DNA from: a virus
Direction: 5' to 3' (one strand)
Virus record (IMG/VR): IMGVR_UViG_3300030390_000715
Coordinates: 88,754 to 152,753 of that record
Length of the DNA: 64,000 nt
Below the pieces are notes generated by a model. It was not told the DNA's origin, did not search any database, and saw only the letters and a list, made by a program, of their open reading frames with translations. The first letter of the stretch is position 1. Each line of letters begins with the position of its first letter. Both the position numbers and the translations under genes were made by a program. Shown piece after piece: positions 20,765 to 40,054 of this stretch.

Positions 20765-20770
20765 AAAGAC

Positions 20771-20778
20771 TATAAATA
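20771..20778 (+). promoter_or_regulatory. T4-type late promoter
   Basis: TATAAATA upstream of gp25. Confidence 0.75.
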
Positions 20779-20798
20779 AAAGAAAAGGGCGATAATGC

Positions 20799-21461
20799 AT
20801 GGCTAAGATTTTCTCTACAGAGGACGGTAAACTTAACACTAGTGTTAGGCTTACGAGCGAACGACTGTATACTGACTTCGATCTAGTCTTCGAGAAAAAG
20901 ACATCTACGGATGGCGATATCTTTAAAAAGACCGATGCGGGTGCAGTAAAGCAGGCTATTAAAACTCTGCTATTAACTAATCGTTTCGAGAAGCCTTATA
21001 GACCACAATTCGGTGCTGACCTATATTCACTATTGTTTAGTCTAGCTGACGAAGAATCGGGCGAAGAAATATCTTCGGCTATCACAGAAGCGATTGAACG
21101 ATACGAGCCAAGGGTTGCAGTACAGAGACTTCAAGTATCAGCCACACCTGATTACAATACGGTCGATGTTACAATAGAATTTCGTGTTATCAATACACAA
21201 TTAATTGATACACTGCGATTAAGTATCACTGATCAAATAGCCGGACCAGATAGAGGCGTGGTTGTTCCTGTCACTGTAGCTGATATACCTCAACAAGTAA
21301 TTAAGACTGAATACGATAATCGCATATTATCAGAGTTTGGACTTTACTTGTCAAGAGATATAGGTAAAACTATTGACGGTGCAATTCTAACTCAAGACGG
21401 TGACGAAATAGCATTCGCAGATACTTCTGGCAATGTACTTATCATATCTACCCCATCTTAA
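20799..21461 (+). CDS. gp25: Baseplate wedge subunit with a C-terminal extension
   Basis: AVKQAIKTLLLTNRFEKPYRPQFG and AIERYEPRV. Confidence 0.9.
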   Translation: MAKIFSTEDGKLNTSVRLTSERLYTDFDLVFEKKTSTDGDIFKKTDAGAVKQAIKTLLLTNRFEKPYRPQFGADLYSLLFSLADEESGEEISSAITEAIERYEPRVAVQRLQVSATPDYNTVDVTIEFRVINTQLIDTLRLSITDQIAGPDRGVVVPVTVADIPQQVIKTEYDNRILSEFGLYLSRDIGKTIDGAILTQDGDEIAFADTSGNVLIISTPS

Positions 21462-21476
21462 CGGAGAGAAAGCGTA

Positions 21477-23273: not shown

Positions 23274-23276
23274 ATA
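23269..23276 (+). promoter_or_regulatory. T4-type late promoter
   Basis: TATAAATA overlapping the gp6 stop. Confidence 0.7.
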
Positions 23277-23302
23277 GATACATATTAATAAGAGAACTAA
23301 TC

Positions 23303-24685: not shown

Positions 24686-24699
24686 TAAGAGACTAAAAA

Positions 24700-27600
24700 A
24701 TGGCAAACCAATATACTTCCGCTACGTTACCAGGTACTTACGCAGACGATTTTGACCCAACAAACAATTATCATCAAATATTGTTTAATAGTGGTCGCGC
24801 ATTGCAAGCCCGAGAACTTACTCAATTGCAGAGTATCATCTTTGCTGAAATGAGCAGGATGGGCGGCAATTTATACAAAGAAGGTGCGGCTATCTCAGGT
24901 GCTGGCACTAGTATCAATAGCGCATACGATTATGTCAAGATCGCTTCGACAAATGCAGGTGGCGAATTCTCTGCTATACCCGTCGGAACAATATTCTCTG
25001 ATCCTATTACTAATATCAAAGCACAAGTCCTAGAAGTATCGCAAGCAAAAACAGGGCAGTTATTTGATACGTTGTTCATTGAATATATCAATAACGGAAG
25101 CGCAGTCTCAGGAAACACTCCTACTAGATTTGGTGATCAGGTCACACTCTTCGATCAGTCAGGTGGTGGTTATGAATTAATCACAGAAACACCTAACGCT
25201 ACTGGTAAAGGTGTTAAGTTTACTGTCGCAGAAGGCGAGTTCTTTGCTCTAGGTAGATTCGTTAATACTATTGAACAATCTATCATATTATCTCCTTACG
25301 AAAATTCTGCGATTGATACTGTCGTAGGATTTAGAGTCGTTCAAGATATTGTTACTGTCAATGACACTGAAGCATTATATGACAACACAAACGGTGTCGT
25401 TAATACAGCTTCTCCTGGTGCTGATCGCTATCGTATCAGCCTAGTTCTAACTACCGAAGATCAAGTTACTGACTCGCAAACATTCTTGTTCTTAGCGCGA
25501 GTTGAAAACTCAAAGATCAGCGAAGAAATACAAATTCAAGACTCGTTCAATAAAATTAATGATCTACTTTCTATACGCACTAAAGAAGAGTCAGGCGATT
25601 ATGTAGTTAATCCTTTTACTGTTAACGTCGACGATTTTGATAACGGTCTTGATTCTAACCTCGATCTTATTGTATCAGAAGGCACAGCATATATCAATGG
25701 GTACAGAGTAGAAAATCAAAGTTCTGCTAAGTTTAAATTGCCGAGACCCACTGCTACTGAATTAGTTAATAACGATACTATCGGTATTCAGTTAGGCAAC
25801 TATTTCCTATGTAATGTCAACAAAGATATTCCTATTCTTGATTATACAGAAGTGAATCTATACTCTGCTGTCACTGCGGGCGGTTCTGTAGTCGGTACAG
25901 CGAGAGTCCGAGGAATTCAACACTTCAGCGACACCGTACAAAAAGTATTTGTCTATGATGTTACTATGCAACCCGGTCAATCTATTGCCCAGATAAGAAG
26001 TCTAGGTACGGCTTCTACTAATTATTTTGACATAGTTGTCGCCACAAACGGTATTAAATTATACGAGACTGATAATAACGATCTATTATTTGCTACTAAC
26101 AACGCACGACCTTCAGACTTTGATGATATTACAGTAACAGTTCAGAAGTACCAGACGAAAACTGCTGTTGGTAATGCGGTCACATTAGATCAATTACCTG
26201 TTGGTCAATCTTACACACAATCTTCTGAGTGGATATTAAGTACTGCTCAAACCAGTGGTGTGGAATTACCAAGTACTTATGTTGTTACTATAACTAACAG
26301 TGGTCGCGATGCTTCTGTAACGAGTCTCGCGCAAGCTACTGACGATTATAAAATTATCGCGTTTGTGCAAAAGACTGCTACGATAAAGCCTAAGACTGCT
26401 ACTACTTCGGGCACGACTTCATTCACCTCTTCTGTAGATGCGGTATCTGGTGTTACGTATTTTAATCTTGGTCTTCCTGATATCTACTCTGTCGATTCTG
26501 TCAGACAAAACAATAGTGCTGGTAATGATTTATCGTCTATCTTTACAATAGATGATGGTCAACGCGACAATTATTACGGTGACGGTCGCCTAGTACTTAA
26601 AGACGGCTTCGCAGATCCAGGCACAATCTATGTAAACTTCAAGTCGTTCACTCGTGGTGCAGGCGATTTCTATGCGGTCAATTCATACAACGTACCATAT
26701 AGTGATATTCCTAAGCACATAACGAATACTGGTGAAGAGATATCGTTGCATGATGTTATCGACTTTAGACCTGATCAAAATACTGCGGGCACAGTGTCGA
26801 ATATACCTGCGCTTCCTCTCAACGGTTCTTTAATCACTGCTGACGTTAATTATTATTTGCCTCGTGCTGATAAAGTTATCATGACTCATGACGGTGAGAT
26901 CAACATTCTAATGGGGCAACAAGCCCGCGATCCACAATTCAAAGAGACACCTGATAACTCTATGGAATTGTATAAGATCATATTGAATGCAAACACCAAG
27001 GATGAAAATGATCTTGTTGTCGTGCCTACTGCTCAACAACGTGGCTACACGATGAAAGATATCGGTGATCTAGAAAATAAGATCGATGCTATAGAAGAGT
27101 CTACTTCACTTAGTATTTTTGAATTAGAAGCGCGTCTTGATAACGTACTTGACAGTGATGGCGTAATTCGTATCATTAGTGGTCTTCAAGTCAACGAAGC
27201 GACTGATCATACTGGCACCGACACGGGTTCACCTGATCATAGAGCTTCGATAGATCCTGAGAATCGTTTGATTAGACCATCATTCGAAGAAGGTAATACT
27301 AGACTAGTCTACGTACCAAACAATACTGCTGATGCTTTCACAACATCACATTCAAGTACGGGTGTTGTCAAGAAGGGCGATAACATCTATCTTGCGCACG
27401 ATTCCGCAGAATGGACATTCCAGAAACTCGCTTCACGTACTACAAAGATTAATCCTTTTGGATTGATCGACAATGTTGGTACATTAAAACTTTCTCCTTC
27501 TACTGATGAATGGAAAGAGTCTATTCAAGATGCTGTTAAGGTTCTAGCTGGTACTAATAAGCTGTCCGCAAAACAAGCGCATTGCTGGAATAACTGGCAG

Positions 27601-30006
27601 TGGAATTGGGGTGGTCGAACTAACGGATCTAATTTCACGGCTAATGTTAGACGAGTAGTAGCCTCCGAAAGTCTACGTAGAGTGATTGGTGATAGAACAG
27701 TCGATCTTGCCCTTGTACCATGGATTCGATCACGAAAGATTTTCTTCAAGGCGCAAGGCTTAACTCCGAACACTAAGTTTACTCCATTCTTTGACGGTAA
27801 AGATGTCTCTGCATGGTGTCGAGAAGAAGTTGCATTCGTTCAGTGGTCAGATCGAGTAGATGATATTGGTAATAAGAATACATACTCAACAATGTCTGGT
27901 CACCCTGACGGAACTACTGATCTTATTGCTGATGCCAACGGTGAAGTCATTGGGTCATTCTTCATACCTAATATTACACCTAAGTATGCGCTACAACACA
28001 CAAAATATCGTGGAAGATATAATAGATATTATCTACGATTTAGAGCCGGTGCAAGAGAATTTAAACTTCTTGATATCAACGTGAACGACTGGGCTAGTGC
28101 AAACAGTAAAGCATTTACGCATTATACTGCTAAGGGCTTGTTGCCATGGGTATGGTGGAATCCTCTTACGCGCTCAAGAGGCAATAAATATCTTTATCCT
28201 TACAACTACACACGTAAACTTTACTCTGCTAAAGAATTGAAACGTGTACTCGATAGAGTACCTGCGGCTTCTGTTAAGCTAATCGATCCTCAGTTATCTG
28301 GTTTATATGGACCTGATGGTGTTGCACTAGATGGTGCGGCTCTACAGACATTAGCAAACAATACTCAAATGTCGAAAGTTTTGTCCGATTATATTAACAT
28401 TAACTTTAATCAGTTTGCAGACATTTTACCTGCTACAGTCCAAGCGGCTACGATGAATCCATTAGCGCAGACTTTTCATGTTAGTAACGATGTTGGTGTT
28501 ACATTGACTAAGATTGATTTATTCTTCAAGTCAAAGCCAACGACTACTGGCTTACCTGTATCTGTTCATATTCGTCCGGTAGAGAATGGCAAGCCGTCAA
28601 CTTCAGACATTATACCTGATTCACATGTATATGTTAATAGTGCTGATGTTGTCGCAACATCTAATACGAATCAATTGGTTACTATTCAGGGTGCACCAAC
28701 ACCTTTCGTATTTGAAGAGCCACTTTACTTATCGCCTGGGCAAGACTACGCTATTGTGGTCACTTCGCAATCTACAGAGTACGAGCTTTACACTGCAAAG
28801 ACTCGCGAACCAGTAATCAATTCGAAGGCTAGATCGATCACAACACAGTCTGCGCCAGGAGCAATGTTCTTACCTCAGAATGGTGTTAACTGGACTGATT
28901 CGAAAGATCAAGACTTAATGTTCAAGCTAACACGCGCTAAGTTTGGTACGAACGGTGGAGCTAACGGCAGTCTTGTATTGAAAAATGCTGATGTTCCTGC
29001 TAGACTATTGAGTGAGAACCCATTACAAACTACAATTAGTGATCATAAAATATATGTTCGTCACGCCAATCACGGTCTACAGCCAGGAGATGGTGCTAGA
29101 CTAGATAGTTGTGCCGAAATAGGTGGATTCAGTTCTGCGCAGTTAAGCGGTAGTTTCGAAGTTATTGATGTCGATGCATACGGATATCGTTTCGAGATTG
29201 ATCCAAGTAATAGAGTCACAGCGACTACTACTGAAGTTGGTGGTGGTGAGAAATGTCTTTCTTTAGGAAACACTAACTTTTCTGTCGCTAATCCTCATAT
29301 CGAATCGATAATACCTAACACGACTTCGATTGATGTCTCTGCACAATTTACTTCTGGTAAGTCTGTATCTGGTTCTGAAACACGATTCGTAAGAGATACG
29401 AAGTATACGAGAATCACGCCTAAGACAAACACTGATTTTGAGAAGGTCAATACGTTATATAACTCTTATTCTCAAGACTCAGATATTGGTGCGGGCATTG
29501 CCTCTGCTTACTTCAAGGTTGATATGAAATCAGCAAGCGATTTTGTTTCTCCTATCATTGATTTACAGCGTTCTTCGTTAATAACTGTTAACAACTTGAT
29601 CGATGATCCGTCAGTTACACCGCATATCTATCCTGTCGCTGAAACATCTGCAACGGGTAGTACTACAGTAGCGTCTCATATTAATAGCCCTGTAGTATTG
29701 CAAGAGACTGCTGTTGGTATTCAAATAAAGACTGACGCGTCCGTTCACTCGGAATGCAACTTTAGATTAGCCTATCGTGTTTGTTCTTCTGATCAAGATA
29801 TTCAGAACACACCGTGGGTAGTTCAAAATCCTACTGACGCTATCGTAAAGGATGGAAGTGTGCGCTCCGTTGAATTCTTAGTCGGTGATAAGAATGGCAC
29901 AATACCTCCATTTAGTCAAGTTCAGACTAAGTTCATTCTAGAAAGTAAGAATAGTGGTAAGCCAGTAACCATAGGCAATAGTGTGGTCAAGTACTTAGCG
30001 GTATGA
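24700..30006 (+). CDS. Large virion structural protein (DUF4815/VrlC-like)
   Basis: YADDFD..NYHQILF..GRALQARELTQLQ, PGADRY, RTKEESGDYVV and PLAQTF. Confidence 0.8.
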   Translation: MANQYTSATLPGTYADDFDPTNNYHQILFNSGRALQARELTQLQSIIFAEMSRMGGNLYKEGAAISGAGTSINSAYDYVKIASTNAGGEFSAIPVGTIFSDPITNIKAQVLEVSQAKTGQLFDTLFIEYINNGSAVSGNTPTRFGDQVTLFDQSGGGYELITETPNATGKGVKFTVAEGEFFALGRFVNTIEQSIILSPYENSAIDTVVGFRVVQDIVTVNDTEALYDNTNGVVNTASPGADRYRISLVLTTEDQVTDSQTFLFLARVENSKISEEIQIQDSFNKINDLLSIRTKEESGDYVVNPFTVNVDDFDNGLDSNLDLIVSEGTAYINGYRVENQSSAKFKLPRPTATELVNNDTIGIQLGNYFLCNVNKDIPILDYTEVNLYSAVTAGGSVVGTARVRGIQHFSDTVQKVFVYDVTMQPGQSIAQIRSLGTASTNYFDIVVATNGIKLYETDNNDLLFATNNARPSDFDDITVTVQKYQTKTAVGNAVTLDQLPVGQSYTQSSEWILSTAQTSGVELPSTYVVTITNSGRDASVTSLAQATDDYKIIAFVQKTATIKPKTATTSGTTSFTSSVDAVSGVTYFNLGLPDIYSVDSVRQNNSAGNDLSSIFTIDDGQRDNYYGDGRLVLKDGFADPGTIYVNFKSFTRGAGDFYAVNSYNVPYSDIPKHITNTGEEISLHDVIDFRPDQNTAGTVSNIPALPLNGSLITADVNYYLPRADKVIMTHDGEINILMGQQARDPQFKETPDNSMELYKIILNANTKDENDLVVVPTAQQRGYTMKDIGDLENKIDAIEESTSLSIFELEARLDNVLDSDGVIRIISGLQVNEATDHTGTDTGSPDHRASIDPENRLIRPSFEEGNTRLVYVPNNTADAFTTSHSSTGVVKKGDNIYLAHDSAEWTFQKLASRTTKINPFGLIDNVGTLKLSPSTDEWKESIQDAVKVLAGTNKLSAKQAHCWNNWQWNWGGRTNGSNFTANVRRVVASESLRRVIGDRTVDLALVPWIRSRKIFFKAQGLTPNTKFTPFFDGKDVSAWCREEVAFVQWSDRVDDIGNKNTYSTMSGHPDGTTDLIADANGEVIGSFFIPNITPKYALQHTKYRGRYNRYYLRFRAGAREFKLLDINVNDWASANSKAFTHYTAKGLLPWVWWNPLTRSRGNKYLYPYNYTRKLYSAKELKRVLDRVPAASVKLIDPQLSGLYGPDGVALDGAALQTLANNTQMSKVLSDYININFNQFADILPATVQAATMNPLAQTFHVSNDVGVTLTKIDLFFKSKPTTTGLPVSVHIRPVENGKPSTSDIIPDSHVYVNSADVVATSNTNQLVTIQGAPTPFVFEEPLYLSPGQDYAIVVTSQSTEYELYTAKTREPVINSKARSITTQSAPGAMFLPQNGVNWTDSKDQDLMFKLTRAKFGTNGGANGSLVLKNADVPARLLSENPLQTTISDHKIYVRHANHGLQPGDGARLDSCAEIGGFSSAQLSGSFEVIDVDAYGYRFEIDPSNRVTATTTEVGGGEKCLSLGNTNFSVANPHIESIIPNTTSIDVSAQFTSGKSVSGSETRFVRDTKYTRITPKTNTDFEKVNTLYNSYSQDSDIGAGIASAYFKVDMKSASDFVSPIIDLQRSSLITVNNLIDDPSVTPHIYPVAETSATGSTTVASHINSPVVLQETAVGIQIKTDASVHSECNFRLAYRVCSSDQDIQNTPWVVQNPTDAIVKDGSVRSVEFLVGDKNGTIPPFSQVQTKFILESKNSGKPVTIGNSVVKYLAV

Positions 30007-30239
30007 TCAATTATCGTCACATAAAAGTCGAGGGGGTTCCTAGTTTAGTTCGAGATGTTGAAACAAACGCTATACTAAGTGTAGATGCAAAAGCAATCGA
30101 ACTAGCTAGAACCCAAAAAAGAATACGAGCCGCAAAGAAAATTGAACATACAGCCTTAGAGAATAAGGTCGATAGTCTCCAAAAAGACATAGAGGATATT
30201 AAAAAAATACTAGAATTGTTAGTCTCTGATAACGTATAA
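30003..30239 (+). CDS. Small coiled-coil protein, conserved after DUF4815 genes
   Basis: KVEG..LVRD..TNAIL and a C-terminal heptad pattern. Confidence 0.65.
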   Translation: MINYRHIKVEGVPSLVRDVETNAILSVDAKAIELARTQKRIRAAKKIEHTALENKVDSLQKDIEDIKKILELLVSDNV

Positions 30240-30242
30240 ATA
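30235..30242 (+). promoter_or_regulatory. T4-type late promoter
   Basis: TATAAATA upstream of the 2480-aa ORF. Confidence 0.75.
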
Positions 30243-30277
30243 ACTGTAACTCTTGACGAATAAGAAGACTGACACCT

Positions 30278-33200
30278 ATGTCTCTACCCTTAAAACATCT
30301 TGGCAATGGCGCGCTTCAAGAATTAGCTTCCGTTGATCTTGATTCCATTGCTTATAGGGCGGGTGTTCATCTAGGTAAAATGGGCGCAGAAGATGCTTCG
30401 GCTCTAACTACAACCTCTACTGCTAACACTCTAGTCGGTTCAATCGATGATACGTTTTACGAAACCACTATAGGTTCTACTCCAGGAACAACATGGACAG
30501 TTAATCTAGCTGTCGATCATATATCGGACACAACTACCGGTGTTCATACTGCGACATTCACACAATTAAACGAATTTCCCTCTCCTATCTTTGTTGGCGA
30601 TACTGTAAGAGTTATTGTTACAGGTGATGCTCAGACAGGTTTTGAAGAGATCGCTCACGAATTGTCCGAGTCTGGTACAGCACTCTTCAGTACAGAAAGT
30701 GTAACAACAACACCGTCCGCGTCTATCATCGAAGATACTCGCGTCGAATGGGAAGATTTTGTTTATGGTCTGACAGGCACATTTATCTCACAGTTTGAGG
30801 TTAAGGTGACTCAACCTGGAGTAATAAACTTTTCGTTGAATGTGAGTACCACTGACTTAAACAACACAACTAATAATACCGCTAACGCGTCTATATCGTT
30901 TGCGACTGTCGATGTTGAAGAAACATTACCGCCAGAAGCGACTAGCGTTCAATATGACTTATATCAATCCAATGCTGGTATTGTTACGCAAAGCGTACAC
31001 AAAAAGAACCCTGTTTTCTGGACCAGATATCTAACGCCAAATGGTATCAAAGAAATGTCTGATGCAGAACTTGATTCGTTCTGCGAAAAATTAGTCATAC
31101 GAATTATGGCAAACGAATTGCCAGGCACATACAGATTAAATGCTAACAGCCCAGGCTCTGATTGGGTTCAATTTGTTAGCAACGTATTTACAGATACACG
31201 CGCAGACGGATCGACTACTGACTACTCGATATGGCTAAGACAGTCAGGTACTGCGCCTACTCAAGTTAATCTTGTATATCCGAAGCGCGTCTTGGGTGAA
31301 TACGCAGGATTAAATGAGTATACAGACAATCAAGTCGAATTTACTTTTGGCGAAAGAGTTAAGAAAGCCATTGCCACTACCGGTATTGGTAAATATGTAC
31401 TAAGATCATCTACTCAAGGTGCGCCTACTGAAACAGGAACGTGGGTTGCTCGTGGTAGTGCGATTGATACTAGACTAGAATATTATTATGACCCAGGTTA
31501 TGTTTCAACACCTGCATATTCAAGTCAATATGTAGAAGATTATGCAACCGACTATGTTGACACGTATGAAGGTAATTATGAGCCTACATATACTGGCGAT
31601 TTCACTGCTGACTTTGAAGGTACATACGAAGCGGAATATCTAGGCAACTATACGCCAGATTATGACACAGGATATGATGCCGAATACACTCAAAACTTTG
31701 AAGCTGATTATCAAAGCCAGTATGAGCAAGAATATCTTGGGGACTACGTTAGCCAATATGTACCCACATACGACGGTGCTATTTTTAACGAACAGTACAG
31801 TACGGATTATCTAGCCGCTGATTTTATAGGCGACTACATTAGCGATTATACAGCCGACGCATACGATTCAGGATATACTTCGGACTATCAAATTGATTAC
31901 ATTGGTTCATACACTGGTCAATACACTAGTAACTATGACAGCGTATATGAAGATATCAATTACGCTACAGATTACAGCGTAGATTATACAGGGCAATATG
32001 AGTCTGTATATGCGACCACGTATGAGAATGACTACACTAGTAATTATAGTTCCCAGTACACTTCTCAATATTCGGATGAATACGAGTCTGTATATGAAGA
32101 TATAGAATACTTGACCGATTACATCTCGGTCTATAATAGCGACTATACTACTGACTATCTAAGCGATTATGATAATACAGCATATAGTACGATTTTCGAA
32201 ACTACCTACGCCACAAATTATTCTACTGGCTTTGAATCTACCTTTATAGGCACGTATGATGACACTGACTATGCGGCTACCTTTTCTGGCGATTATGTCT
32301 CTAATTATGATAACTCATTCGTAAGTCCGGAGTATCAGAGTGTTTACGAGGGTAGCCCATACTCTGTAGACTTTGTTGGAGATTACACATCCACTTATGA
32401 TTCTTCGTTCGTACAGGATTTTGTAGGCACGTATGATGACACTGACTATGTGACTAACTTCGTCGGTGATTATGCTAGTCAATATATCAGTCAGTTTAGC
32501 CAAGACTTTGCTGTCGATTATAATACAGACGATTACGTGGTAGACTTTGTTGGTGATTATACGTCATCTTACGATGCTTCGTTCGCACAGGACTTCGTTG
32601 GAAATTATAGTGACACTGACTATGCGACTACCTTCGTCGGTGATTATGCTAGTCAATATATCAATCAGTTTAGTCAGAACTTTGCGGCAGTGTTTGATGG
32701 TTCTCAATATACTACTGTTTTTGAATCGAACTATGTGGGTGATTATGCAGGATCATTCGAAGGCAACTTCAACAACATATTCGAAGGTGCAAGTTATGTT
32801 TCTACCTTTGCCAACTCTTATGCTAGTCAATATACGTCACAGTTCAGTCAAGCATTCTCGGCTAACTATGATAACACAACATACACTGGTGACTTTAATG
32901 AGACTTATTCTGGCGATTACATTGGTCTGTATAGCGCGTCTTTCGCAGGCAATTATGAGCGAACTACATATGAAACGCAATTTAGCGCGTCATACACCGG
33001 CAACTATGTGGGTCTTTTCTCACAGACTTTCTTAGGAACATATGACAGTCAAGGATACACTGCTGACTTTACAGCAAACTATACTGGCGACTACAGCGGT
33101 ACGTTCGGAACTACGTTTCTTGGAAATTATGATAGTCAACAATTTAACGCTATCTTCGAGAGTACTTACACTGGTGATTATGACGGACAATTTAGTGCTA

Positions 33201-36200
33201 CGTTTATCGGTGAATACGATAGAGTAAACTACAACACAAACTTCGTAGGCGATTACGTCGGTGATTATAGCGGAGCATTTAGTGCTACGTTTGTAGGCAA
33301 TTACGAAAGATTGACGTACCAAGGCGAGTATGTTTCTACGTACACTGGTGATTATACCGGAACATTTAATGCCAACTTTAACGCTACTTACGATGGAGCT
33401 AATTACGCCTCTCAATATACTGGCGGTTATACTGGCGCTCCGTCTGAAACCTTTAGTGCTAACTTTATAGGCGAATACCAGCGAATTGATTACACTAGCC
33501 AATATACTGGTCAATACGTATCACAGATAAGCGAATCGTTCGGTGCTTCATATACGGGTGTCTACGAAAGAACCAATTACACTTCTGTTTACACTGGTGG
33601 TTATACTGGACAAGTAAACGAAAACGAGGATAGCACTAACGAAGAGTCGTTCGCTCGTGACACTTACGTCTCACAATACACTGGCGGATACACTGGTGGT
33701 TATGCAGGGCTATACGAACGCGCAGTGAATGAATCGTTTTCAGGTGCCTCATTCACTGGTGATTATACAGGGCAGTATGTTGGTCAAGTTGGCGAAACCA
33801 TAATTGATAATATCGATGAATCGTTCAATGTGAACTATACAGGCGAATATACAGGTCAGTATGTTGGTCAAGTTGGCGAAACCATAGGCGATGCTATCAA
33901 CGAATCATTCAATGTAAATTACACTGGTGATTATACAGGGCAGTATGTTGGTCAAGTTGGTGAAACCGAGCAACAAACATTTACAGCAACTTTTAACTCT
34001 GCTAATAACTACAATACGCAATATACAGGGCAGTATATTGGTCAAGTAACCGAGAATGAAAGTACAACGGAACAACAATCTTATACAGGCGCATATACAG
34101 GCGATTACACAGGTCAGTATGTTGGTCAAGTAAGTGAGACAGAACAAACAGCTATCAACGAAGGTTTTGTTACCACATATATTGGAACATATACTGGTGG
34201 TTATGAACGCGCACAAACAGAAAATGAAGACCAAACACAATCGACCACATACACGGGCGGTTATGTACGCGCACAAAACACTACTAATCAAGATACGGTG
34301 ACTGATGCCGTAGGGGAAGTTTTCAATGGAAACTTCCAAGGAAACTACGTTAGTACCTCTACAACTTTTTACAATGGACCAAATGCTCATACAACAAGTA
34401 CGATGGTTGCTGACGAATATGCTGATCTAAATGATTACAACCTTTCGGGTACAGCCGGTTATTCCTCTGTTTCTTCTACCCTTGGTGGTAGTTTCAGCCC
34501 AACTTCACTTAATCTTGGCATGGGATCTGTAAGGGCTCTATTTCACAACTGGACTACGATTTTTACTTCTGGTGTTGGTGTTAAAACATCGCAAGGTTTA
34601 ACGCTTCAACTCAACGCTGGTAGTAATCCCACAAACTGGCAATCGATGCACCTTGTAGCACCCGGTGGCGCGGTTACGATTGTCAATAGAACGTCTATGT
34701 CTTATACGCTGTCAGGTGGAATTGCGACTTTCTCTATATCTTCCTCGGTTGCCCCCGGACCCGTCTTCTTTGGTCAAAATGAATCTTGGACTGTTAAGTT
34801 TATTAATCCCTTTGGCAACACAGCGGGATATGCCGGTGGAGGTGGCAGTTCAACTTTCATAGGAGATTACGTAAGTTCATACATAGGCTCTTATTTAGGC
34901 GCATACACGGGCTCATACACAGGGCAATATACAGGAACAGTGAACGAGAATTTCACGGGTGATTATGTCGGGCAGTATTCGGGTCAATATGTTGGTGTTG
35001 TTCAAGAGGGCATAGATGAAGGCTTTGCGTCTACATACACTGGTCAATACACTGGTGGCTATACAGGTTTATACGAACGAGCGCAGAACCAGTCGTTTGC
35101 TACGGTTCAATCATCGACATATACCGGTGGCTATACAGGGCAATATACAGGCTTATACGAACGAGCGCAGAATGAAAACTTCGCGGTCAACTATAACAGT
35201 TCATACATAGGCAACTACACTGGTGGTTATGCAGGGCTATATGAACGAGCGCAGAGTGAAACTTTCGCGGCTGTTTATGCTGGAACGTACACAGGTCAAT
35301 ACACTGGTGGCTATTCAGGATTATATGAACGAGCGCAGAGTGAAACTTTCGCGGCTGTCTATGCCGGCACATACACTGGACAATACTCTGGTGGTTATGC
35401 AGGGCTATATGAACGCGCAGTGAATGAAACTTTCAGTGTTGCTTACGCGGCTGATTATATTGGTCAGTATGTTGGTCAAATAGCTGAAGTAGAACAGACT
35501 ACAGAACAAGAAACATTCTCCGCGTCTTATATTGGAAATTACATTGGTGGTTATACTGGTCAGTACTTAGGGCAATATGAGCGTACACAACAACAAAACT
35601 TTTCCGCTAACTACTTAGCCTCGTTTGAAGGTGCATTTAACGCAACATATGTGGGGCTATACGAACGCGCTATTGATGAAACATTTAGTGCTAACTACCT
35701 CGGAACATTCGCGGGCGATTATGTCTCACAATATACTGGAGCATACGAATCTGTAGATAGCGAAACATTTACGGCTAACTTCACTGGCTCTTATAATAGC
35801 ACATATTTGTCATCGTATGACGGTACCTTTGTTGCTAACTTTAATCAAACATTCATTGACCAATACACCGGAACATTCCTTGGTGATTATCTTTCGCAGT
35901 ATACAGGCGGATTCTCAGAGTCCTTCGCCGGAGACTACGCTTCTGATTATCTCGGAACATTCGCGGGCGATTATCTTTCGCAGTACACGGGCGTCTTTAC
36001 ACAAAACTTTGTAGGCACATACACTTCGGGCTATACAAGAACATTCGACGGCGACTACGTTTCACAATACGAAGGTAACTTCTCGGCTGTATACACAGGA
36101 AACTTTACTGCACAATACACCGGAACATTCGACGGCAACTACGTTTCACAATATGAAGGTAACTTCTCGGCTAATTTTGGAGCGCAGTTTAGCGCACAGT

Positions 36201-37720
36201 ATCTTGGAACATTCATAGGTGATTATGCTTCGAGCTACGAAGGTGCGTTTGGTGTCTCATATTCTGGAAACTTTACTGAAGACTACGTTGACACGTATAC
36301 ATCCCAGTATACATCCCAGTATACATCTGATTTTGAAGCCATTTACGTCGGTGATTTTGAAGGAGCTTATCAAGCTTCCTTTGAAGGTAACTTTGCGGCT
36401 CAATACGAAGGATCTTTTGCGCAGACCTTCACAGGATCATACGATACACAGTACACTGGATCTTACATATCACAGTATTTGTCGACATACGAATCAGCTT
36501 TCACAGCTATATTCGGTAGTGATTACACGTCCGAGTATCTAGGAACATTCGACGGTAACTATGTCTCAGCCTATGCCAATGTGTTCAGCCAGACATTCTC
36601 GGGCAATTATGTTTCTAGTTATCTCGGAACATTCACTGGTCAATATACGGGTGAGTACGAGTCAGACTATACAAGCTCATTCGCAGGAGATTATGCATCC
36701 GAGTATCTTGGAACATTCGACGGTAACTATGTCTCAGCCTATGCCAATGTGTTCAGCCAGACATTCTCGGGCAATTATGTAACTGATTATATTGATTCTT
36801 ATCAGTCTGCTTATATTACTACCTATGACAGTACATTCACATCTAACTTTAGTGGTGAATACACGTCCGAGTATCTCGGAACATTCGATGGTGATTATAC
36901 TTCGGAATATGCTAGTATATACCTGAACGAATATGTCGGTACTTACACATCTGAATACACTGACACTTACACTGGCAACTTCTTAGATACATACGAAGGA
37001 ACTTTCGCTGATGCGTATGAAACTGGTTATACTGGCACATATGCTTCCGAGTATCAAACCAATTACGGATCGGAGTTTATAAGTGAATATGCTAGTGATT
37101 ATACCACTGATTACAATACCGATTATGCTACGCAATTCGAAGGCACGTTCATTGGTCAATATGAGAATGAGTACCTAGGCACTTACGAAAGCACCTTCAT
37201 AGAGAATTACGAGTCGACTGAATCATACATTGCATATGGTACTTCCTATGCGTCCGAATATGTCTCTGACTACAATCCTACATACGAAGGTGATTTCTTA
37301 GGAAGCTATGAGCCTAGCTACGAGACAACTTACAATTCAGAATATACAGGCACATATGACGCTGACGCTGTGGATGAAAGTTACGATTCATTGTATGTTC
37401 GTGATCTTTATTCTTCTGATTATACGACTGATTATATCGAACAAGTTTACGTGTCTGGTTATGTGACTAGCTACGAAGGTCTTGATAGCGAAGAGTCATA
37501 CGATACGACATATGATGGCGCTGTTTACACCTCGAGCTATGCCTCTGACTATCAAGATGATGACATTATCGAGAGTTACGATGACACGGCTTACACCGCA
37601 CTCTATAATACCGATTACTCGATTGACTATATAACTGATACAGCATACGGTACTGGAGGACACTTACGAGACATTCCTGTATCGATTGAAACTTATACAT
37701 TATACGTGAGGGTAGCATGA
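30278..37720 (+). CDS. Giant Tyr/Phe-periodic (Yxxx)n acidic protein, putative virion fibre/appendage
   Basis: Late promoter; ~400-aa N-terminal domains, then ~2050 aa with an aromatic residue at about every 4th position, interrupted by a ~160-aa central non-repetitive domain. Confidence 0.8.
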   Translation: MSLPLKHLGNGALQELASVDLDSIAYRAGVHLGKMGAEDASALTTTSTANTLVGSIDDTFYETTIGSTPGTTWTVNLAVDHISDTTTGVHTATFTQLNEFPSPIFVGDTVRVIVTGDAQTGFEEIAHELSESGTALFSTESVTTTPSASIIEDTRVEWEDFVYGLTGTFISQFEVKVTQPGVINFSLNVSTTDLNNTTNNTANASISFATVDVEETLPPEATSVQYDLYQSNAGIVTQSVHKKNPVFWTRYLTPNGIKEMSDAELDSFCEKLVIRIMANELPGTYRLNANSPGSDWVQFVSNVFTDTRADGSTTDYSIWLRQSGTAPTQVNLVYPKRVLGEYAGLNEYTDNQVEFTFGERVKKAIATTGIGKYVLRSSTQGAPTETGTWVARGSAIDTRLEYYYDPGYVSTPAYSSQYVEDYATDYVDTYEGNYEPTYTGDFTADFEGTYEAEYLGNYTPDYDTGYDAEYTQNFEADYQSQYEQEYLGDYVSQYVPTYDGAIFNEQYSTDYLAADFIGDYISDYTADAYDSGYTSDYQIDYIGSYTGQYTSNYDSVYEDINYATDYSVDYTGQYESVYATTYENDYTSNYSSQYTSQYSDEYESVYEDIEYLTDYISVYNSDYTTDYLSDYDNTAYSTIFETTYATNYSTGFESTFIGTYDDTDYAATFSGDYVSNYDNSFVSPEYQSVYEGSPYSVDFVGDYTSTYDSSFVQDFVGTYDDTDYVTNFVGDYASQYISQFSQDFAVDYNTDDYVVDFVGDYTSSYDASFAQDFVGNYSDTDYATTFVGDYASQYINQFSQNFAAVFDGSQYTTVFESNYVGDYAGSFEGNFNNIFEGASYVSTFANSYASQYTSQFSQAFSANYDNTTYTGDFNETYSGDYIGLYSASFAGNYERTTYETQFSASYTGNYVGLFSQTFLGTYDSQGYTADFTANYTGDYSGTFGTTFLGNYDSQQFNAIFESTYTGDYDGQFSATFIGEYDRVNYNTNFVGDYVGDYSGAFSATFVGNYERLTYQGEYVSTYTGDYTGTFNANFNATYDGANYASQYTGGYTGAPSETFSANFIGEYQRIDYTSQYTGQYVSQISESFGASYTGVYERTNYTSVYTGGYTGQVNENEDSTNEESFARDTYVSQYTGGYTGGYAGLYERAVNESFSGASFTGDYTGQYVGQVGETIIDNIDESFNVNYTGEYTGQYVGQVGETIGDAINESFNVNYTGDYTGQYVGQVGETEQQTFTATFNSANNYNTQYTGQYIGQVTENESTTEQQSYTGAYTGDYTGQYVGQVSETEQTAINEGFVTTYIGTYTGGYERAQTENEDQTQSTTYTGGYVRAQNTTNQDTVTDAVGEVFNGNFQGNYVSTSTTFYNGPNAHTTSTMVADEYADLNDYNLSGTAGYSSVSSTLGGSFSPTSLNLGMGSVRALFHNWTTIFTSGVGVKTSQGLTLQLNAGSNPTNWQSMHLVAPGGAVTIVNRTSMSYTLSGGIATFSISSSVAPGPVFFGQNESWTVKFINPFGNTAGYAGGGGSSTFIGDYVSSYIGSYLGAYTGSYTGQYTGTVNENFTGDYVGQYSGQYVGVVQEGIDEGFASTYTGQYTGGYTGLYERAQNQSFATVQSSTYTGGYTGQYTGLYERAQNENFAVNYNSSYIGNYTGGYAGLYERAQSETFAAVYAGTYTGQYTGGYSGLYERAQSETFAAVYAGTYTGQYSGGYAGLYERAVNETFSVAYAADYIGQYVGQIAEVEQTTEQETFSASYIGNYIGGYTGQYLGQYERTQQQNFSANYLASFEGAFNATYVGLYERAIDETFSANYLGTFAGDYVSQYTGAYESVDSETFTANFTGSYNSTYLSSYDGTFVANFNQTFIDQYTGTFLGDYLSQYTGGFSESFAGDYASDYLGTFAGDYLSQYTGVFTQNFVGTYTSGYTRTFDGDYVSQYEGNFSAVYTGNFTAQYTGTFDGNYVSQYEGNFSANFGAQFSAQYLGTFIGDYASSYEGAFGVSYSGNFTEDYVDTYTSQYTSQYTSDFEAIYVGDFEGAYQASFEGNFAAQYEGSFAQTFTGSYDTQYTGSYISQYLSTYESAFTAIFGSDYTSEYLGTFDGNYVSAYANVFSQTFSGNYVSSYLGTFTGQYTGEYESDYTSSFAGDYASEYLGTFDGNYVSAYANVFSQTFSGNYVTDYIDSYQSAYITTYDSTFTSNFSGEYTSEYLGTFDGDYTSEYASIYLNEYVGTYTSEYTDTYTGNFLDTYEGTFADAYETGYTGTYASEYQTNYGSEFISEYASDYTTDYNTDYATQFEGTFIGQYENEYLGTYESTFIENYESTESYIAYGTSYASEYVSDYNPTYEGDFLGSYEPSYETTYNSEYTGTYDADAVDESYDSLYVRDLYSSDYTTDYIEQVYVSGYVTSYEGLDSEESYDTTYDGAVYTSSYASDYQDDDIIESYDDTAYTALYNTDYSIDYITDTAYGTGGHLRDIPVSIETYTLYVRVA
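36542..36780 (+). repeat. 71-bp exact direct repeat inside the giant ORF
   Basis: GGAACATTCGACGGTAAC...GGCAATTATGT at 36542-36612 and 36710-36780. Confidence 0.85.
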
Positions 37721-38166
37721 GTTTACAAGTAGAATATTTAGATAACGCATACTGGGAAAATAAAGATAAGACCCAGCTAAAATGCATTCGATTGAAGCCC
37801 GTTGAAGGCGGAAAGGGTGGTCGCAAGAAAGATGTCTTATTATTAAATAAAGGTGATCCAGAATATGACATTGTAGTGTCTAGGTGGGGTGTTCCTCATA
37901 TCGATAAAAACACTCAAGAACGCGCTGACTCTAAGGATAAAAAAGATCGAGAGAATCGCGCAGTCCACGAACAGCGCAAAAAATCTGCTGAGTTAGAGCA
38001 ACTATTCAATGCTAAACTTCAGACGAGTGAAATACCTGAAATCAAAAATTCTACAAACAAAGCTATGAGATCGAAGATAAGACGCGCAAAGAGTGTGATC
38101 GAAATGCAAGCCCTAGCCGCTCTGCTGATTGGAATGGAATTAGGCTACATTGAGGTTAAAAAATGA
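37717..38166 (+). CDS. Hypothetical basic protein translationally coupled to the giant ORF
   Basis: ATGA overlap; Lys/Arg-rich and probably helical. Confidence 0.7.
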   Translation: MSLQVEYLDNAYWENKDKTQLKCIRLKPVEGGKGGRKKDVLLLNKGDPEYDIVVSRWGVPHIDKNTQERADSKDKKDRENRAVHEQRKKSAELEQLFNAKLQTSEIPEIKNSTNKAMRSKIRRAKSVIEMQALAALLIGMELGYIEVKK

Positions 38167-38969
38167 GAGATGTGATTGACACAGTAAAAAAATGGCTACG
38201 CATTACTCCACCTACGACCCCACCTACGATTGGATATGTTATTGTTGCATCTCGAAAGAAGTTCTTTTATGTTTCTGCAATTAATCTTATGGAATCAATC
38301 AAAGATCATTATCCCGAAGCTAAGATCACTCTAGTCGTTGAAGAAAGATTCCTTGATGGTAACGAGAAGATAGCGGATAACATTATTTTCTGCGATGATC
38401 ATGCACGAGCTAAGTTGATAGGAATGGCTAAATCACCTTATGATATTACGTTTTATGTCGATGCAGATATAGAATGCGAACACGAAGATATCTCTACAAT
38501 CTTTGATAAACTCGATGGACATGATATCATGTTCACTGGTCTACCTGCTGATAGACATTACTGTTACGCAGAAGTATTCTTTGACGGTGCAACAAAGGCT
38601 GACGGTACTAAAGCAGGGTTCGAACTTTGCGGAGGTGTCTGTCTTTATGATATGAGAAAGCCACTTGTTCGTGAATTCATGAACGATTGGTATAATCTAA
38701 CTGTAGCTCAGTATGCTAGACTCTGGTGGCCAAGGAACGAAGATGGCACTGAAGACCTCAAAAATTATCCTGCTACACTAAAAAGATGGGACCAATTCTC
38801 ACTTTGGTGGTTAACTAACAAAGAGCCAAAATACAAAGACCTCAAAGTAGGTATATTAGAAGATGATGCTCGATGGAATTACTACTCTAAGTATAAGTAC
38901 GACCATAATAAAGAGCCTGTAGTATTGAGACACTACTCCTCTTCAGGCGCTAAATCTCTGGAGTTTTAA
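38163..38969 (+). CDS. Glycosyltransferase-like protein (GT-A fold)
   Basis: GYVIVAS..., SPYDITFYVDAD (DxD), GGVCLY, WDQFSLW, RWN and a C-terminal His. Confidence 0.7.
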   Translation: MRDVIDTVKKWLRITPPTTPPTIGYVIVASRKKFFYVSAINLMESIKDHYPEAKITLVVEERFLDGNEKIADNIIFCDDHARAKLIGMAKSPYDITFYVDADIECEHEDISTIFDKLDGHDIMFTGLPADRHYCYAEVFFDGATKADGTKAGFELCGGVCLYDMRKPLVREFMNDWYNLTVAQYARLWWPRNEDGTEDLKNYPATLKRWDQFSLWWLTNKEPKYKDLKVGILEDDARWNYYSKYKYDHNKEPVVLRHYSSSGAKSLEF

Positions 38970-38972
38970 ACT

Positions 38973-39647
38973 ATGATGAAAAATATACCTTTAAACGACT
39001 TTGCAATAGAATTGTTAGACGAAGCATTGTGGTTTACAAAAGAAGAAAATTACACCGCTGTAATACCTACGAAGATGAACGATCTCGATAAAGCTGATTA
39101 TTATACGGGTGATGAATATTTCGAGAAAATAAAAGCGATGGGTAGTTCTCATGATGGATTTCCAGAATTCATCGCCTGTTATTCTTTTGGTCAAGGTATT
39201 AGATTCGATAATCATAATCCAAAAATTCAAAGGAAGATCGCTGAAGTAACCGAAAGACATAGTGCGTTAATAACTAATATTCAGACTACTTTCAATCTTA
39301 AAAAGAACGCTCTGTTTTCGATTTATCCTCCGGGTGGCTTTATCTCTTGGCATAATAATGCTAACGCGTCGGCTTATAACTTTATATTTACTTACAGCGA
39401 AACAGGTGATGGATGGTGGAAGCACTTGGATCCTGTTACTAAAGAAATGGTTCATATACCTGATGTTAAGGGATGGCAATGTAAAGCTGGACACTTCGGC
39501 TCATACGCTGACGGAGAAGACTCACTAGTATATCATGCCGCAAAGAATGGTAGTACAGGATTACGAATGACCATTGCGTTCACGTTAGATCGATCTGATA
39601 CGTCACTATCTCTTCAGGACTGGATAATAGAAGATATTCAAGCTTAG
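38973..39647 (+). CDS. 2OG-Fe(II) oxygenase-like (double-stranded beta-helix) protein
   Basis: YPPGGFISWHNN...YHAA...RMTIAF follows the H-x-(D/N)...H...R arrangement. Confidence 0.6.
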   Translation: MMKNIPLNDFAIELLDEALWFTKEENYTAVIPTKMNDLDKADYYTGDEYFEKIKAMGSSHDGFPEFIACYSFGQGIRFDNHNPKIQRKIAEVTERHSALITNIQTTFNLKKNALFSIYPPGGFISWHNNANASAYNFIFTYSETGDGWWKHLDPVTKEMVHIPDVKGWQCKAGHFGSYADGEDSLVYHAAKNGSTGLRMTIAFTLDRSDTSLSLQDWIIEDIQA

Positions 39648-39653
39648 GAATCG

Positions 39654-39661
39654 TATAAATA
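39654..39661 (+). promoter_or_regulatory. T4-type late promoter
   Basis: TATAAATA. Confidence 0.75.
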
Positions 39662-39694: not shown

Positions 39695-40054
39695 ATGGCT
39701 ACGCATTACGAAGTCCTTCAAATAAATCAAGGCTCTGACACTTCGATAGAGTTGGAGCTTGTAAATGTGGACAATTCTAAAAAGGACTTGACAGGGTTTA
39801 GTGTTGAAGCTAAACTCAGTTCAAGCTATTCTCAGCCTGATTCTGATAAGACTAGTTTCTTGTCTATAATATCCTCTCCCTCTACAAGCGGTATCGTCAA
39901 TCTTTCGTTGACTAACGAGCAAACGAGCATACTTAATCCTAAGAAGCGTTTCGTCTATGATGTTGAGATATCACACGTTGATAGTGCTACGGGCAATACA
40001 ATTATCGAGAGGGTTCTAGAAGGTATCCTTACAGTAACTCCGGCGGTGACTTAA
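39695..40054 (+). CDS. Small Ig-like virion protein (BppU-N-like)
   Basis: INQGSD...DLTGF...YDVEI...RVLEGILTVTPAVT pattern. Confidence 0.6.
   Translation: MATHYEVLQINQGSDTSIELELVNVDNSKKDLTGFSVEAKLSSSYSQPDSDKTSFLSIISSPSTSGIVNLSLTNEQTSILNPKKRFVYDVEISHVDSATGNTIIERVLEGILTVTPAVT

What the first reader, a model, noticed from the sequence alone, without database searches (positions are those of the whole stretch)
30278..37720. 2480-aa protein built as a giant fold-back hairpin with mirror-complementary arms
Seen: two (Y/F)xxx-periodic arms of nearly equal length (~31480-34350 and ~34850-37680, about 950 aa each) flank a ~160-aa non-repetitive central domain. Reading outward from the centre, modules of type A (Y[EV]R[AT]) and type B (Y.G[QTV][VI].E) run A,A,B,B,B,B,B,A,B,B in the N-arm. 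In the C-arm they run B,B,A,A,A,A,A,B,A,A, so every A faces a B at the mirror position. Inference: the chain runs out and back as an antiparallel beta-ribbon with stacked Tyr ladders, placing the central domain at the distal tip as a candidate receptor-binding domain. At ~3.3 A per residue this could reach roughly 300 nm. I do not recognise this architecture among described T4-like fibres.
Basis: partly seen in the sequence, partly recalled or inferred. Interest (0 to 1): 0.9.

Follow-up and report, generated by a model that had tools for sequence, protein, structure and literature searches.

The report
Giant fold-back hairpin phage fibre
A 2480-residue protein of an uncultivated marine T4-like phage appears to run out about 950 residues, carry a small variable domain at the far end, and run back alongside itself to close its own base domain, a fibre design not described for phages.

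Summary
ORF 30278-37720 encodes 2480 aa: a ~400-aa base, two (Y/F)xxx arms of 973 and 955 aa, a 143-aa central domain and a conserved end, ETYTLYVRVA.

- In 12 complete homologues the two arm lengths track each other (r = 0.986, |N-C| <= 42 aa).
- Close homologue pairs differ by matching indels at mirror positions: 60|60, 124|124, 12,2,10|10,2,12 and 14,28,8|8,28,14.
- A large family of 285-520-aa "mini" relatives follows the same rule: 19 of 29 pairs match exactly.
- A complex model docks the last 23 residues onto the N-terminal domain (ipSAE 0.85, best control 0.00).
- AF2 of a mini homologue gives a three-unit base whose third beta-hairpin is the arms (pLDDT 82).

Counter-evidence: one homologue, P0004, has unequal arms (~850 vs ~316 aa). 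The window/L003 pair is mirrored but unequal (166 vs 189 aa).

Still open: the shaft's 3D fold, oligomeric state and length, and the receptor-binding role.

There is no Pfam, PHROG or PDB relative. Earlier notes of this scan concern this same genome only.

The parts
30235..30242 (+). TATAAATA, a T4-late-promoter-like motif 36 nt upstream of the start codon
   Evidence: The window has 10 matches against 6.0 +/- 2.6 expected, so the count alone is not significant. Nine are on the + strand and most lie just upstream of gene starts.
30278..37720 (+). Giant fold-back fibre gene, 2480 aa plus stop
   Evidence: contigs of four runs tile it.
30278..31474 (+). Base domain, aa 1-399. It has three related units, each ending in a beta-hairpin: strands near aa 54-62/223-231, 302-311/314-322 and 393-401/2471-2480. 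Unit 1 carries a ~155-aa insert (about aa 67-221) that is absent from short-base homologues.
   Evidence: Alignment A3. AF2 of the mini homologue L033 has base pLDDT > 90 and a thrice-repeated beta-beta-alpha-beta-hairpin. Weak beta-prism-like fold matches, Z 6.0-6.6.
31475..34393 (+). N-arm (outbound), aa 400-1372. (Y/F)xxx lattice with a +1 shift every 29 aa between aa 690 and 1154; DNA repeat units of 87 and 174 nt.
34394..34822 (+). Central non-repetitive domain, aa 1373-1515: the inferred distal tip and candidate host-binding domain
   Evidence: It is 86% identical in L003 and unrelated in the other homologues. No hit among 1.84 billion representatives. The midpoints of mirror indels fall inside it.
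34823..37687 (+). C-arm (return), aa 1516-2470. (Y/F)x(G/S/A)x lattice with no phase shift (every Y/F spacing a multiple of 4) from aa 1519 to 2311; DNA repeat units of 84 and 168 nt.
37688..37717 (+). C-terminal strand ETYTLYVRVA, aa 2471-2480. It is conserved in the giant homologues (all 17 complete loci end in it or a near variant; the database proteins vary the last two residues) and is predicted to complete unit 3 of the base.
   Evidence: Contacts are with aa 369-379 and 387-406.
37717..38166 (+). g149, a 149-aa protein that overlaps the fibre gene's stop. It is syntenic in homologous loci, and its net charge is opposite to that of the fibre.
38163..38969 (+). g268, a conserved neighbour and possible GT-A nucleotide-sugar transferase (lead only)
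38973..39647 (+). g224, a conserved neighbour of unknown family
39695..40054 (+). g119, a match to the PHROG family 'L-shaped tail fiber protein assembly', behind its own TATAAATA at 39654
   Evidence: phrog_3304, E = 1.5e-9.

Best explanation
The gene encodes a virion fibre built from one chain that folds back on itself.

Base. The first ~400 residues form a compact base of three related units, each contributing one beta-hairpin (a pseudo-threefold, beta-prism-like core).

Shaft. The third hairpin is stretched enormously. Its outbound strand is the 973-aa N-arm and its return strand is the 955-aa C-arm. The last ten residues (ETYTLYVRVA) re-enter the base and close it. The arms lie antiparallel in a fixed register. 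Each is a (Y/F)-x-(G/S/A)-x lattice, that is, beta-strand-like with aromatic and small residues alternating on one face. Where one arm lacks aromatics (B modules), the other supplies them (A modules).

Tip. The 143-aa central domain therefore sits at the far end. Because it is replaced by unrelated domains in relatives, it is the likely host-binding part.

Evolution. Length changes by paired insertions and deletions in both arms.

Shown here by computation: arm pairing, the tip position, and predicted docking of the C-terminus.

Inferred: the beta-ribbon geometry, virion location, receptor binding, and the chain being a monomer or an oligomer.
For: 1. Arm lengths co-vary. In 12 non-identical complete homologues the arms span 441-973 aa, |N-C| is at most 42 aa and r = 0.986. 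None of 100,000 permutations reached the observed mean |N-C|. The sequences are related, so this is not 12 independent events.

2. Mirror indels between close pairs:
- L020/L021 (97.6% identical): 60 | 60.
- L022/L025: 124 | 124.
- L019/L024: 12, 2, 10 | 10, 2, 12.
- C48C1/L032: 14, 28, 8 | 8, 28, 14.
- Window/L003 (95%): 166 | 189.
Every midpoint lies inside the central domain (in C48C1, the first non-repetitive domain).

3. Mini family. There are 232 proteins of 198-630 aa. I examined the 29 pairs with at least 75% identity and a length difference of at least 4 aa:
- 19 have exactly equal net indels on the two sides of the arm midpoint.
- 1 has 8 vs 7.
- 1 has no arm gap.
- 8 are unequal; in 5 of these the gap sits at the turn.

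4. Complex model. The N-domain (aa 1-430) was modelled with the C-tail (aa 2431-2480). Scores were 0.85, 0.86 and 0.85; the best of 3 controls was 0.00.
- This mark was reached by 58 of 80 solved complexes and 2 of 110 mismatched pairs. These counts hold only roughly, because I supplied my own alignments.
- The runs agree in at least 82% of contacts, and partner pLDDT is 50-53.
- No solved relative exists from which the model could recall the pairing.

5. AF2 of the 360-aa homologue L033 with 119 rows: pLDDT 82.1, pTM 0.74, base above 90. Strands 240-264 and 326-358 leave and re-enter the base.

6. Short relatives have a turn of a few residues and no tip domain. Their hairpin must therefore be intramolecular.

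7. Context:
- The gene lies between baseplate genes (gp5-, gp25- and gp6-like, and a weak gp8-like match) and tail-fibre, chaperone-like and neck genes.
- The upstream baseplate-type neighbours (homologues of the gp8-like gene and the 1768-aa gene) were found at 26 and 32 of the 33 loci searched.
- All four downstream genes are found at 14 of those loci; others are cut short.

8. The A and B modules sit at mirror positions.
Against: - P0004 (2238 aa) has arms of about 850 and 316 aa and a further ~410 aa after the ETYTLY motif.
- The window/L003 indels are mirrored but differ by 23 aa.
- P0024/P0019 shows 8 vs 0, and the two P0009 pairs show 8 vs 60.
- Distal arms are low-confidence in the only good model (pLDDT < 50 at residues 258-287 and 304-329).
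- AF2 of the window's own centre fragment gave no information.
- The aromatic 'rung' complementarity at the mirror register is not unique. One of 30 rungs is empty at offset 2880, but 8 of 43 offsets do as well.
- There is no direct evidence that the protein is in the virion, of its oligomeric state, or of any receptor.
- Multi-domain homologues (P0003, P0125-P0137) were only mapped, not tested.
Confidence: 0.72

Rival explanations
1. The arms do pair antiparallel, but between chains. The N-arm of one molecule lies along the C-arm of another (head-to-tail dimer or polymer), so the central domain sits mid-rod and not at a free tip.
For: Mirror indels and equal arms cannot tell cis pairing from trans pairing. 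The docking model was run with two separate chains.
Against: Mini homologues have arms of ~50-120 aa joined by a turn of a few residues, and the monomer AF2 model closes the base with its own C-terminus. A base at both ends of a rod does not suit a baseplate-attached fibre (inference).
Confidence: 0.07
2. The fold-back architecture is right, but the protein is not the primary receptor-binding fibre. It could be an accessory whisker, a sensor, or an adhesin for particles or non-host surfaces, and the central domain could be a decoration.
For: - Most family members are short and have no tip domain at all.
- Another large tail-fibre protein lies nearby at 41190-46121.
- The tip domain has no recognisable binding fold.
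Against: Central domains are swapped among otherwise similar fibres, as is usual for host-range determinants (general knowledge). Multi-domain relatives carry several extra globular domains.
Confidence: 0.18
3. It is an ordinary parallel homotrimeric fibre with a knob in mid-shaft. The two arms are successive shaft segments that never touch.
For: Most known phage fibres are parallel trimers (general knowledge). Short sequence repeats are common in fibre shafts.
Against: This gives no reason for equal arms or for equal-sized indels at mirror positions in many pairs. It also gives no reason for the C-terminal strand to dock on the N-terminal domain or for the single-chain three-unit base.
Confidence: 0.03
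4. The repeat region is a metagenome assembly artefact or a non-functional low-complexity expansion.
For: The window comes from an uncultivated virus record. Contigs of public runs break inside the repeats.
Against: - The frame stays open for 7.4 kb with its four-residue lattice unbroken over ~790 aa.
- Four runs from four studies hold the same sequence, including the segments absent from L003.
- Paired indels recur in loci from many samples.
Confidence: 0.01

Closest known systems
Distal tip ('needle') of the T4 long tail fibre protein gp37
   Same: The chain goes out to a receptor-binding tip and comes back. In passages of PMC6957217, the D10 collar is made of residues 811-881 and 1010-1026, with the needle and tip between them. 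Both belong to T4-like fibre modules, and both place the binding part in the middle of the sequence segment.
   Different: - gp37 is a homotrimer whose needle is held by seven iron ions on His residues (same passages).
- Its out-and-back part is on the order of 100 residues.
- Here each arm is ~950 residues, there is no HxH at all, the lattice is (Y/F)xxx, and the base is one chain with three units.
- There is no sequence similarity.
- That the gp37 chains 'fold back' is my recollection of the 2010 crystal structure paper, which I did not read here.
Beta-prism domains: the MABP domain of MVB12B (3tow) and the C-terminal domains of Plu-MACPF (2qp2) and Mp2Ba1 (8b6v)
   Same: These are the best structural matches to the base of the L033 model: Z 6.6, 6.4 and 6.0, rmsd 3.7-3.8 A, 115-122 residues aligned. 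They share a pseudo-threefold arrangement of beta-hairpins.
   Different: Z is below the level at which the tool considers a match more than a common arrangement. Sequence identity is 7-13%. None carries an extended hairpin. These are unrelated biological systems.
Uncharacterised 'mini' homologues from marine metagenomes (285-520 aa; L033 and P0006-P0124)
   Same: They share the three-unit base, the (Y/F)xGx arms, the C-terminal strand (...LWVRTA) and the paired-indel rule. L033 also shares the gene neighbourhood.
   Different: Their arms are only ~50-130 aa and join in a tight turn with no tip domain. All are annotated hypothetical. None occurs in the 50,697 phage records searched except C48C1.
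Repeat-built phage shafts: the T4 gp5 triple beta-helix (8-residue VxGxxxxx repeat) and the adenovirus triple beta-spiral (both recalled, not tested)
   Same: Short sequence periods that encode long, thin beta-structures in virus attachment or puncturing organelles.
   Different: Those are parallel trimers with N and C termini at opposite ends. Here the period is 4, and the two halves of one chain are coupled antiparallel.

Membership tests
T4 gp37-type long tail fibre tip | Detectable sequence similarity to gp37 or other solved fibre proteins | tested here: not met
   Pfam found no family apart from a chance DUF347 match at E = 0.39. PHROGs found none. PDB searches by phmmer and by profile found none at E <= 1.
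T4 gp37-type long tail fibre tip | His-x-His motifs that coordinate iron along the needle | tested here: not met
   There are 10 His in 2480 aa and no HxH.
T4 gp37-type long tail fibre tip | Out-and-back chain topology with the binding tip mid-sequence | tested here: met
   Mirror indels, equal arms and C-terminus docking.
T4 gp37-type long tail fibre tip | Homotrimer | not testable with these tools
The base looks like a single-chain pseudo-trimer.
Beta-prism (MABP-like) fold, base domain only | Three-fold pseudo-symmetric prism of beta-hairpins or sheets | tested here: inconclusive
   Three repeated units appear in the AF2 model. The best matches are 2qp2_A at Z 6.6, 8b6v_A at Z 6.4 and 3tow_A at Z 6.0. 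Foldseek against the PDB and BFVD found nothing at E <= 0.001.
Phage tail fibre or receptor-binding protein (functional class) | Encoded in the baseplate/tail-fibre module next to fibre chaperone-type genes | tested here: met
   gp5-, gp25- and gp6-like genes and a weak gp8-like match lie upstream. A fibre assembly-like gene, a tail fibre protein and neck genes lie downstream. The four-gene downstream set is found at 14 loci.
Phage tail fibre or receptor-binding protein (functional class) | Presence in the virion and binding to a host receptor | not testable with these tools
   There is no isolate. No RNA or proteome data were found.
Family of the mini homologues (unnamed) | Three-unit base, (Y/F)xxx hairpin and a C-terminal closing strand | tested here: met
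   L033 was found through the window's N-domain (E = 4e-5). It has the same neighbours and the same end motif type.

The most novel reading that the evidence does not exclude
One polypeptide makes a free-standing two-stranded beta-ribbon of ~950 residue pairs, far longer than any beta-hairpin I know of (recalled, not searched). Fully extended it would reach 0.2-0.3 micrometres.

The ribbon would be stabilised by an aromatic-over-glycine lattice of period four. One regular bulge per 29 residues on the outbound strand would set its coil.

It would grow out of a single-chain pseudo-trimeric base, so the fibre needs no trimerisation. Reach would be tuned by paired indels, and specificity by swapping or adding domains at the tip and along the return strand.

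This would be a new structural class of phage fibre and a new protein architecture.
Probability: 0.35. Interest if true: 0.95.

Novelty: new variant of a known kind. Interest (0 to 1): 0.85.

Why it matters
Phage fibres are thought of as parallel trimers with the binding domain at the C-terminal end. Here the evidence points to a different design: a fibre made by stretching one beta-hairpin of a small domain to nearly 2000 residues, with the binding domain in the middle of the gene.

If correct, four things follow.
- It gives a rule for reading host-range determinants in a widespread but unannotated family of marine T4-like phage genes: look mid-gene, at the symmetry centre.
- It shows an unusual evolutionary constraint, compensating indels hundreds of residues apart, that can be used to infer long-range contacts from sequence alone.
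- It offers a very simple four-residue code for a long, rigid protein rod.
- It warns that structure predictors fail on such shafts, while comparative indel analysis succeeds.

Tried and rejected
Structure prediction of the window's own centre. AF2 of aa 1241-1640, with a two-row alignment, gave mean pLDDT 27.7 and pTM 0.21. This says nothing for or against the hairpin.

Searches that found nothing:
- Central domain: 0 hits among 1.84 billion representatives. The Atlas feature search gave a best score of 0.75, which is noise level.
- Whole protein: Pfam only a chance DUF347 match, PHROGs none, PDB none.
- Megablast of window 20000-32000 against the phage collection: no match.
- tblastn of the giant protein and of L033 against the phage collection: only C48C1 in each case.
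- Foldseek of the L033 model against the PDB and BFVD: nothing at E <= 0.001.

Analyses that were uninformative:
- A plain scan for aromatic-aromatic coincidence between the arms, because of the 4-residue degeneracy.
- The 'no empty rung' test. It is satisfied at the mirror offset, but also at 7 other offsets of the 43 tried, so I do not count it as evidence.

Explanations ruled out or left open:
- A DNA-level palindrome: there are 0 inverted repeats in the gene.
- Host: the 152,753-base record (91% complete) has no psbA, so a cyanobacterial host is not shown.
- Expression: no RNA holder was listed for the gene.

Built or mapped but not used further:
- Alignment A5 (the mini homologue against full-length giants) scattered the arms and was not used.
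- For P0003 and P0125-P0137 I made only segment maps and a few pair alignments. The 114-aa difference between P0125 and P0126 lies in a non-periodic insert, not in the lattice.

Literature. Searches found no paper that describes this family or a (Y/F)xxx hairpin fibre. I saw only the listings, plus passages of PMC6957217. Supplements were not consulted. Subscription journals are not covered, so this is not proof that it is unpublished.
Full report
What is there. The window belongs to an uncultivated virus record of 152,753 bases, 91% complete by CheckV. It is a T4-like myovirus.
- Upstream of the finding lie gp5-like, gp25-like and gp6-like baseplate genes, a baseplate wedge gene with a weak gp8-like match (Pfam below its cut-off), and a 1768-aa DUF4815 protein.
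- Downstream lie a fibre-assembly-like gene, a 1643-aa tail fibre protein, and neck and sheath genes.
- The only relative among 50,697 phage records is Phage C48C1 (OQ984149). That record is classified in Kyanoviridae, and its 3347-aa homologue is annotated hypothetical.
- The own record has no psbA, so the host is unknown.

The observation. ORF 30278-37720 gives 2480 aa.
- Of 465 successive Y/F spacings, 359 are exactly 4.
- The protein is a ~400-aa base, an N-arm (aa 400-1372), a 143-aa non-periodic centre (aa 1373-1515), a C-arm (aa 1516-2470) and a ten-residue end, ETYTLYVRVA.
- In the C-arm every Y/F spacing between aa 1519 and 2311 is a multiple of 4. Over aa 1527-2311 the consensus is (Y/F, 92%)-x-(G/S/A, 74%)-x. 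This is what a beta-strand with alternating large and small residues on one face would look like.
- The N-arm has the same lattice plus one extra residue every 29 aa, 17 times in a row from aa 690 to 1154. This matches DNA repeat units of 87/174 nt in the N-arm against 84/168 nt in the C-arm.
Nine strict mirror pairs have position sums of 2876-2880. The tenth B is degenerate, and two A motifs are unpaired.
- Contigs of four marine metagenome runs from four studies tile the gene at 95-100% identity without joints.

Test of the fold-back idea by comparison. The N-terminal domain found 32 IMG/VR loci. Seventeen of them hold a complete gene that ends in ETYTLYVRVA or a near variant. Database proteins P0003 and P0004, and later P0125-P0137, were also found.

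In the 12 non-identical complete homologues with one central domain, the arms range from 441 to 973 aa. The two arms of each protein nevertheless differ by at most 42 aa (r = 0.986).

More telling are close relatives, which differ by indels that come in mirror pairs.
- L020/L021 (97.6% identical) differ by exactly two gaps, 60 aa in each arm.
- L022/L025 differ by 124 aa in each arm.
- L019/L024 differ by 12, 2, 10 before the centre and 10, 2, 12 after it.
- C48C1/L032 differ by 14, 28, 8 and 8, 28, 14 around the first small globular domain of C48C1.
- The window's protein and L003 (95% identical) differ by two large gaps only: 166 aa in the N-arm (aa 501-666) and 189 aa in the C-arm (aa 2157-2345). 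These are mirrored but not equal.

In every case the midpoint of the paired gaps falls inside the central domain (my arithmetic from those calls). A single mutational event cannot make two distant deletions. There are no inverted DNA repeats. Assembly errors would not recur as equal mirror pairs in different samples. The simplest reading is selection to keep the two arms in register, which means they pair antiparallel.

A short form of the same protein. Locus L033 holds, in the same gene neighbourhood, a 360-aa relative. It has the base, two arms of about 50 aa joined by a tight turn, no tip domain, and an end of the same type.

It has at least 232 relatives of 198-630 aa in public metagenomes, all unannotated. 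I examined the 29 pairs with at least 75% identity and a length difference of at least 4 aa.
- 19 have exactly equal net indels on the two sides of the arm midpoint (2|2 up to 16|16).
- One has 8|7.
- One differs only outside the arms.
- Eight are unequal. In five of these the gap is at the turn itself. Two involve P0009, which seems to have two turn motifs. One is 8|0.

In these short proteins the hairpin can only be intramolecular.

Structure predictions. AF2 of L033 with 119 sequences gave pLDDT 82.1 and pTM 0.74.
- The base (pLDDT above 90) is three repeats of beta-beta-alpha-beta plus a beta-hairpin.
- The third hairpin is formed by strand 240-264, which leaves the base, and strand 326-358, which returns.
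- The distal arms are predicted as strands but with pLDDT below 50.

The alignment A3 and this model agree with it.

For the window's own protein I modelled the N-domain (aa 1-430, 20 rows) together with the last 50 residues (13 rows). The score was 0.85, 0.86 and 0.85 against 0.00 for the best of three controls.
- This mark was reached by 58 of 80 solved complexes and 2 of 110 mismatched pairs. The counts hold only roughly, because my own alignments were used.
- The runs agree in at least 82% of contacts, and partner pLDDT is 50-53.
- Residues 2458-2480 touch aa 369-379 and 387-406, and also parts of the unit 1 and unit 2 hairpins.
- These are two parts of one protein, a kind of pair that tends to pass. 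But no solved relative exists.

The model supports, and does not show, that the chain ends where it began.

What the base resembles. Foldseek found nothing in the PDB or BFVD. The wide structural search gave beta-prism domains as the best matches: Plu-MACPF C-terminal domain Z 6.6, Mp2Ba1 Z 6.4, MABP domain Z 6.0, with rmsd 3.7-3.8 A over 115-122 residues. This is below the level at which the tool counts a match as more than a common arrangement. I use it only as a description: a pseudo-threefold prism.

The tip and the function. The central domain is 86% identical in L003 and unrelated in all other homologues, whose centres are themselves diverse. It has no relative in 1.84 billion representatives.

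C48C1, L032 and P0003 carry several further globular domains. In C48C1 the symmetry centre is the first one, so the others are inserts along the return arm.

A variable domain at the free end of a long shaft, in a baseplate and fibre gene module and behind a late-promoter-like TATAAATA, is what a receptor-binding fibre looks like. That function is inferred, not shown.

Four small genes follow the fibre gene at 14 loci. One of them, g268, may be a GT-A sugar transferase. The evidence is an Atlas feature score of 0.96 to clusters where 30-51% of members carry PF03407, and a Pfam GT2 match at only E = 0.11.

Against, and open.
- P0004 has arms of ~850 and ~316 aa and extra C-terminal domains. This may be a different fold of part of its N-arm or an assembly collapse; I cannot tell which.
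- The window/L003 pair is unbalanced by 23 aa.
- I have no contact map, no oligomeric state and no length. The figure of ~300 nm assumes a fully extended ribbon.
- A regular bulge every 29 residues on one strand suggests a coiled ribbon (inference).
- Whether a two-stranded ribbon with one aromatic face is stable alone or needs partners is unknown.

Comparison and novelty. The nearest known design is the needle tip of T4 gp37. There the collar is built from residues 811-881 and 1010-1026, with the tip between them, in an iron-stapled trimer (passages of PMC6957217).

The present protein shares the out-and-back topology and the genomic setting. It differs in the following.
- No sequence similarity.
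- No HxH motif.
- Arms roughly ten times longer.
- A four-residue aromatic lattice.
- A single-chain three-unit base.

My literature searches found no description of it. I class it as a new variant of a known kind (a phage fibre with a fold-back tip). There is a fair chance that the shaft is a new protein architecture.

Noticed in passing
window 37717-38166 and homologous loci: The net charge of the small protein encoded just after the fibre gene is opposite to that of the fibre. Acidic fibres (net -173 to -273) go with g149 at +2 to +8. Basic, Arg-rich fibres (net +68 to +140) go with g149 at -1 to -8. This covers 13 loci but only about two clades, so at most one or two independent changes. 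It may be a dedicated chaperone or partner.
   Followed up: partly
window 38163-38969: g268 is the best conserved neighbour (54-70% identity across loci). Language-model features place it near nucleotide-diphospho-sugar transferase clusters (score 0.96). Pfam gives only GT2 at E = 0.11. The fibre may be glycosylated.
   Followed up: partly
window 32345-33740 (aa 690-1154) versus 34832-37210 (aa 1519-2311): The outbound arm has one extra residue at strict 29-residue intervals (17 in a row). The return arm keeps every Y/F spacing a multiple of 4 over the ~790 residues it was checked. I read this as a regular beta-bulge on one strand only, but the geometry is unexplained.
   Followed up: partly
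P0004 (and locus L017): This homologue has unequal arms (~850 vs ~316 aa), other repeat types (ETNPT..., AEPNNAPP loops) and ~410 further residues after the ETYTLY motif. It does not fit the simple hairpin rule.
   Followed up: partly
P0009, P0013, P0018, P0020, P0025, P0092 (415-aa class of mini homologues): In the two members whose sequences I read (P0009 and P0018), the arms seem to contain two turn motifs, as if the hairpin were doubled (four strands). Pairs with P0009 show 8 vs 60 aa indels.
   Followed up: no
L001:11677-21720 (C48C1 homologue): A stretch of about 75 residues occurs twice in tandem, letter for letter, at the end of one globular domain. It is either a recent duplication or an assembly duplication.
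   Followed up: no
Giant homologues in general: The arms come in two chemical styles: acidic D/E-rich (window, L003, L005, L008) and basic R-rich YxRxR/FxGNY (C48C1, L018-L032). The four-residue period is the same in both.
   Followed up: no
window 12280, 20771, 23269, 30235, 39654, 50695, 59529: TATAAATA motifs lie on the + strand 27-72 nt upstream of gene starts, as for T4 late promoters. The overall count (10 vs 6.0 expected) is not significant by itself.
   Followed up: no
window 24700-30006: The 1768-aa protein upstream (DUF4815, phrog_358) was found by tblastn at 32 of the 33 loci searched, upstream of the fibre gene wherever I compared positions, whether the fibre is giant or mini. It is a candidate attachment partner of the base domain.
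   Followed up: no
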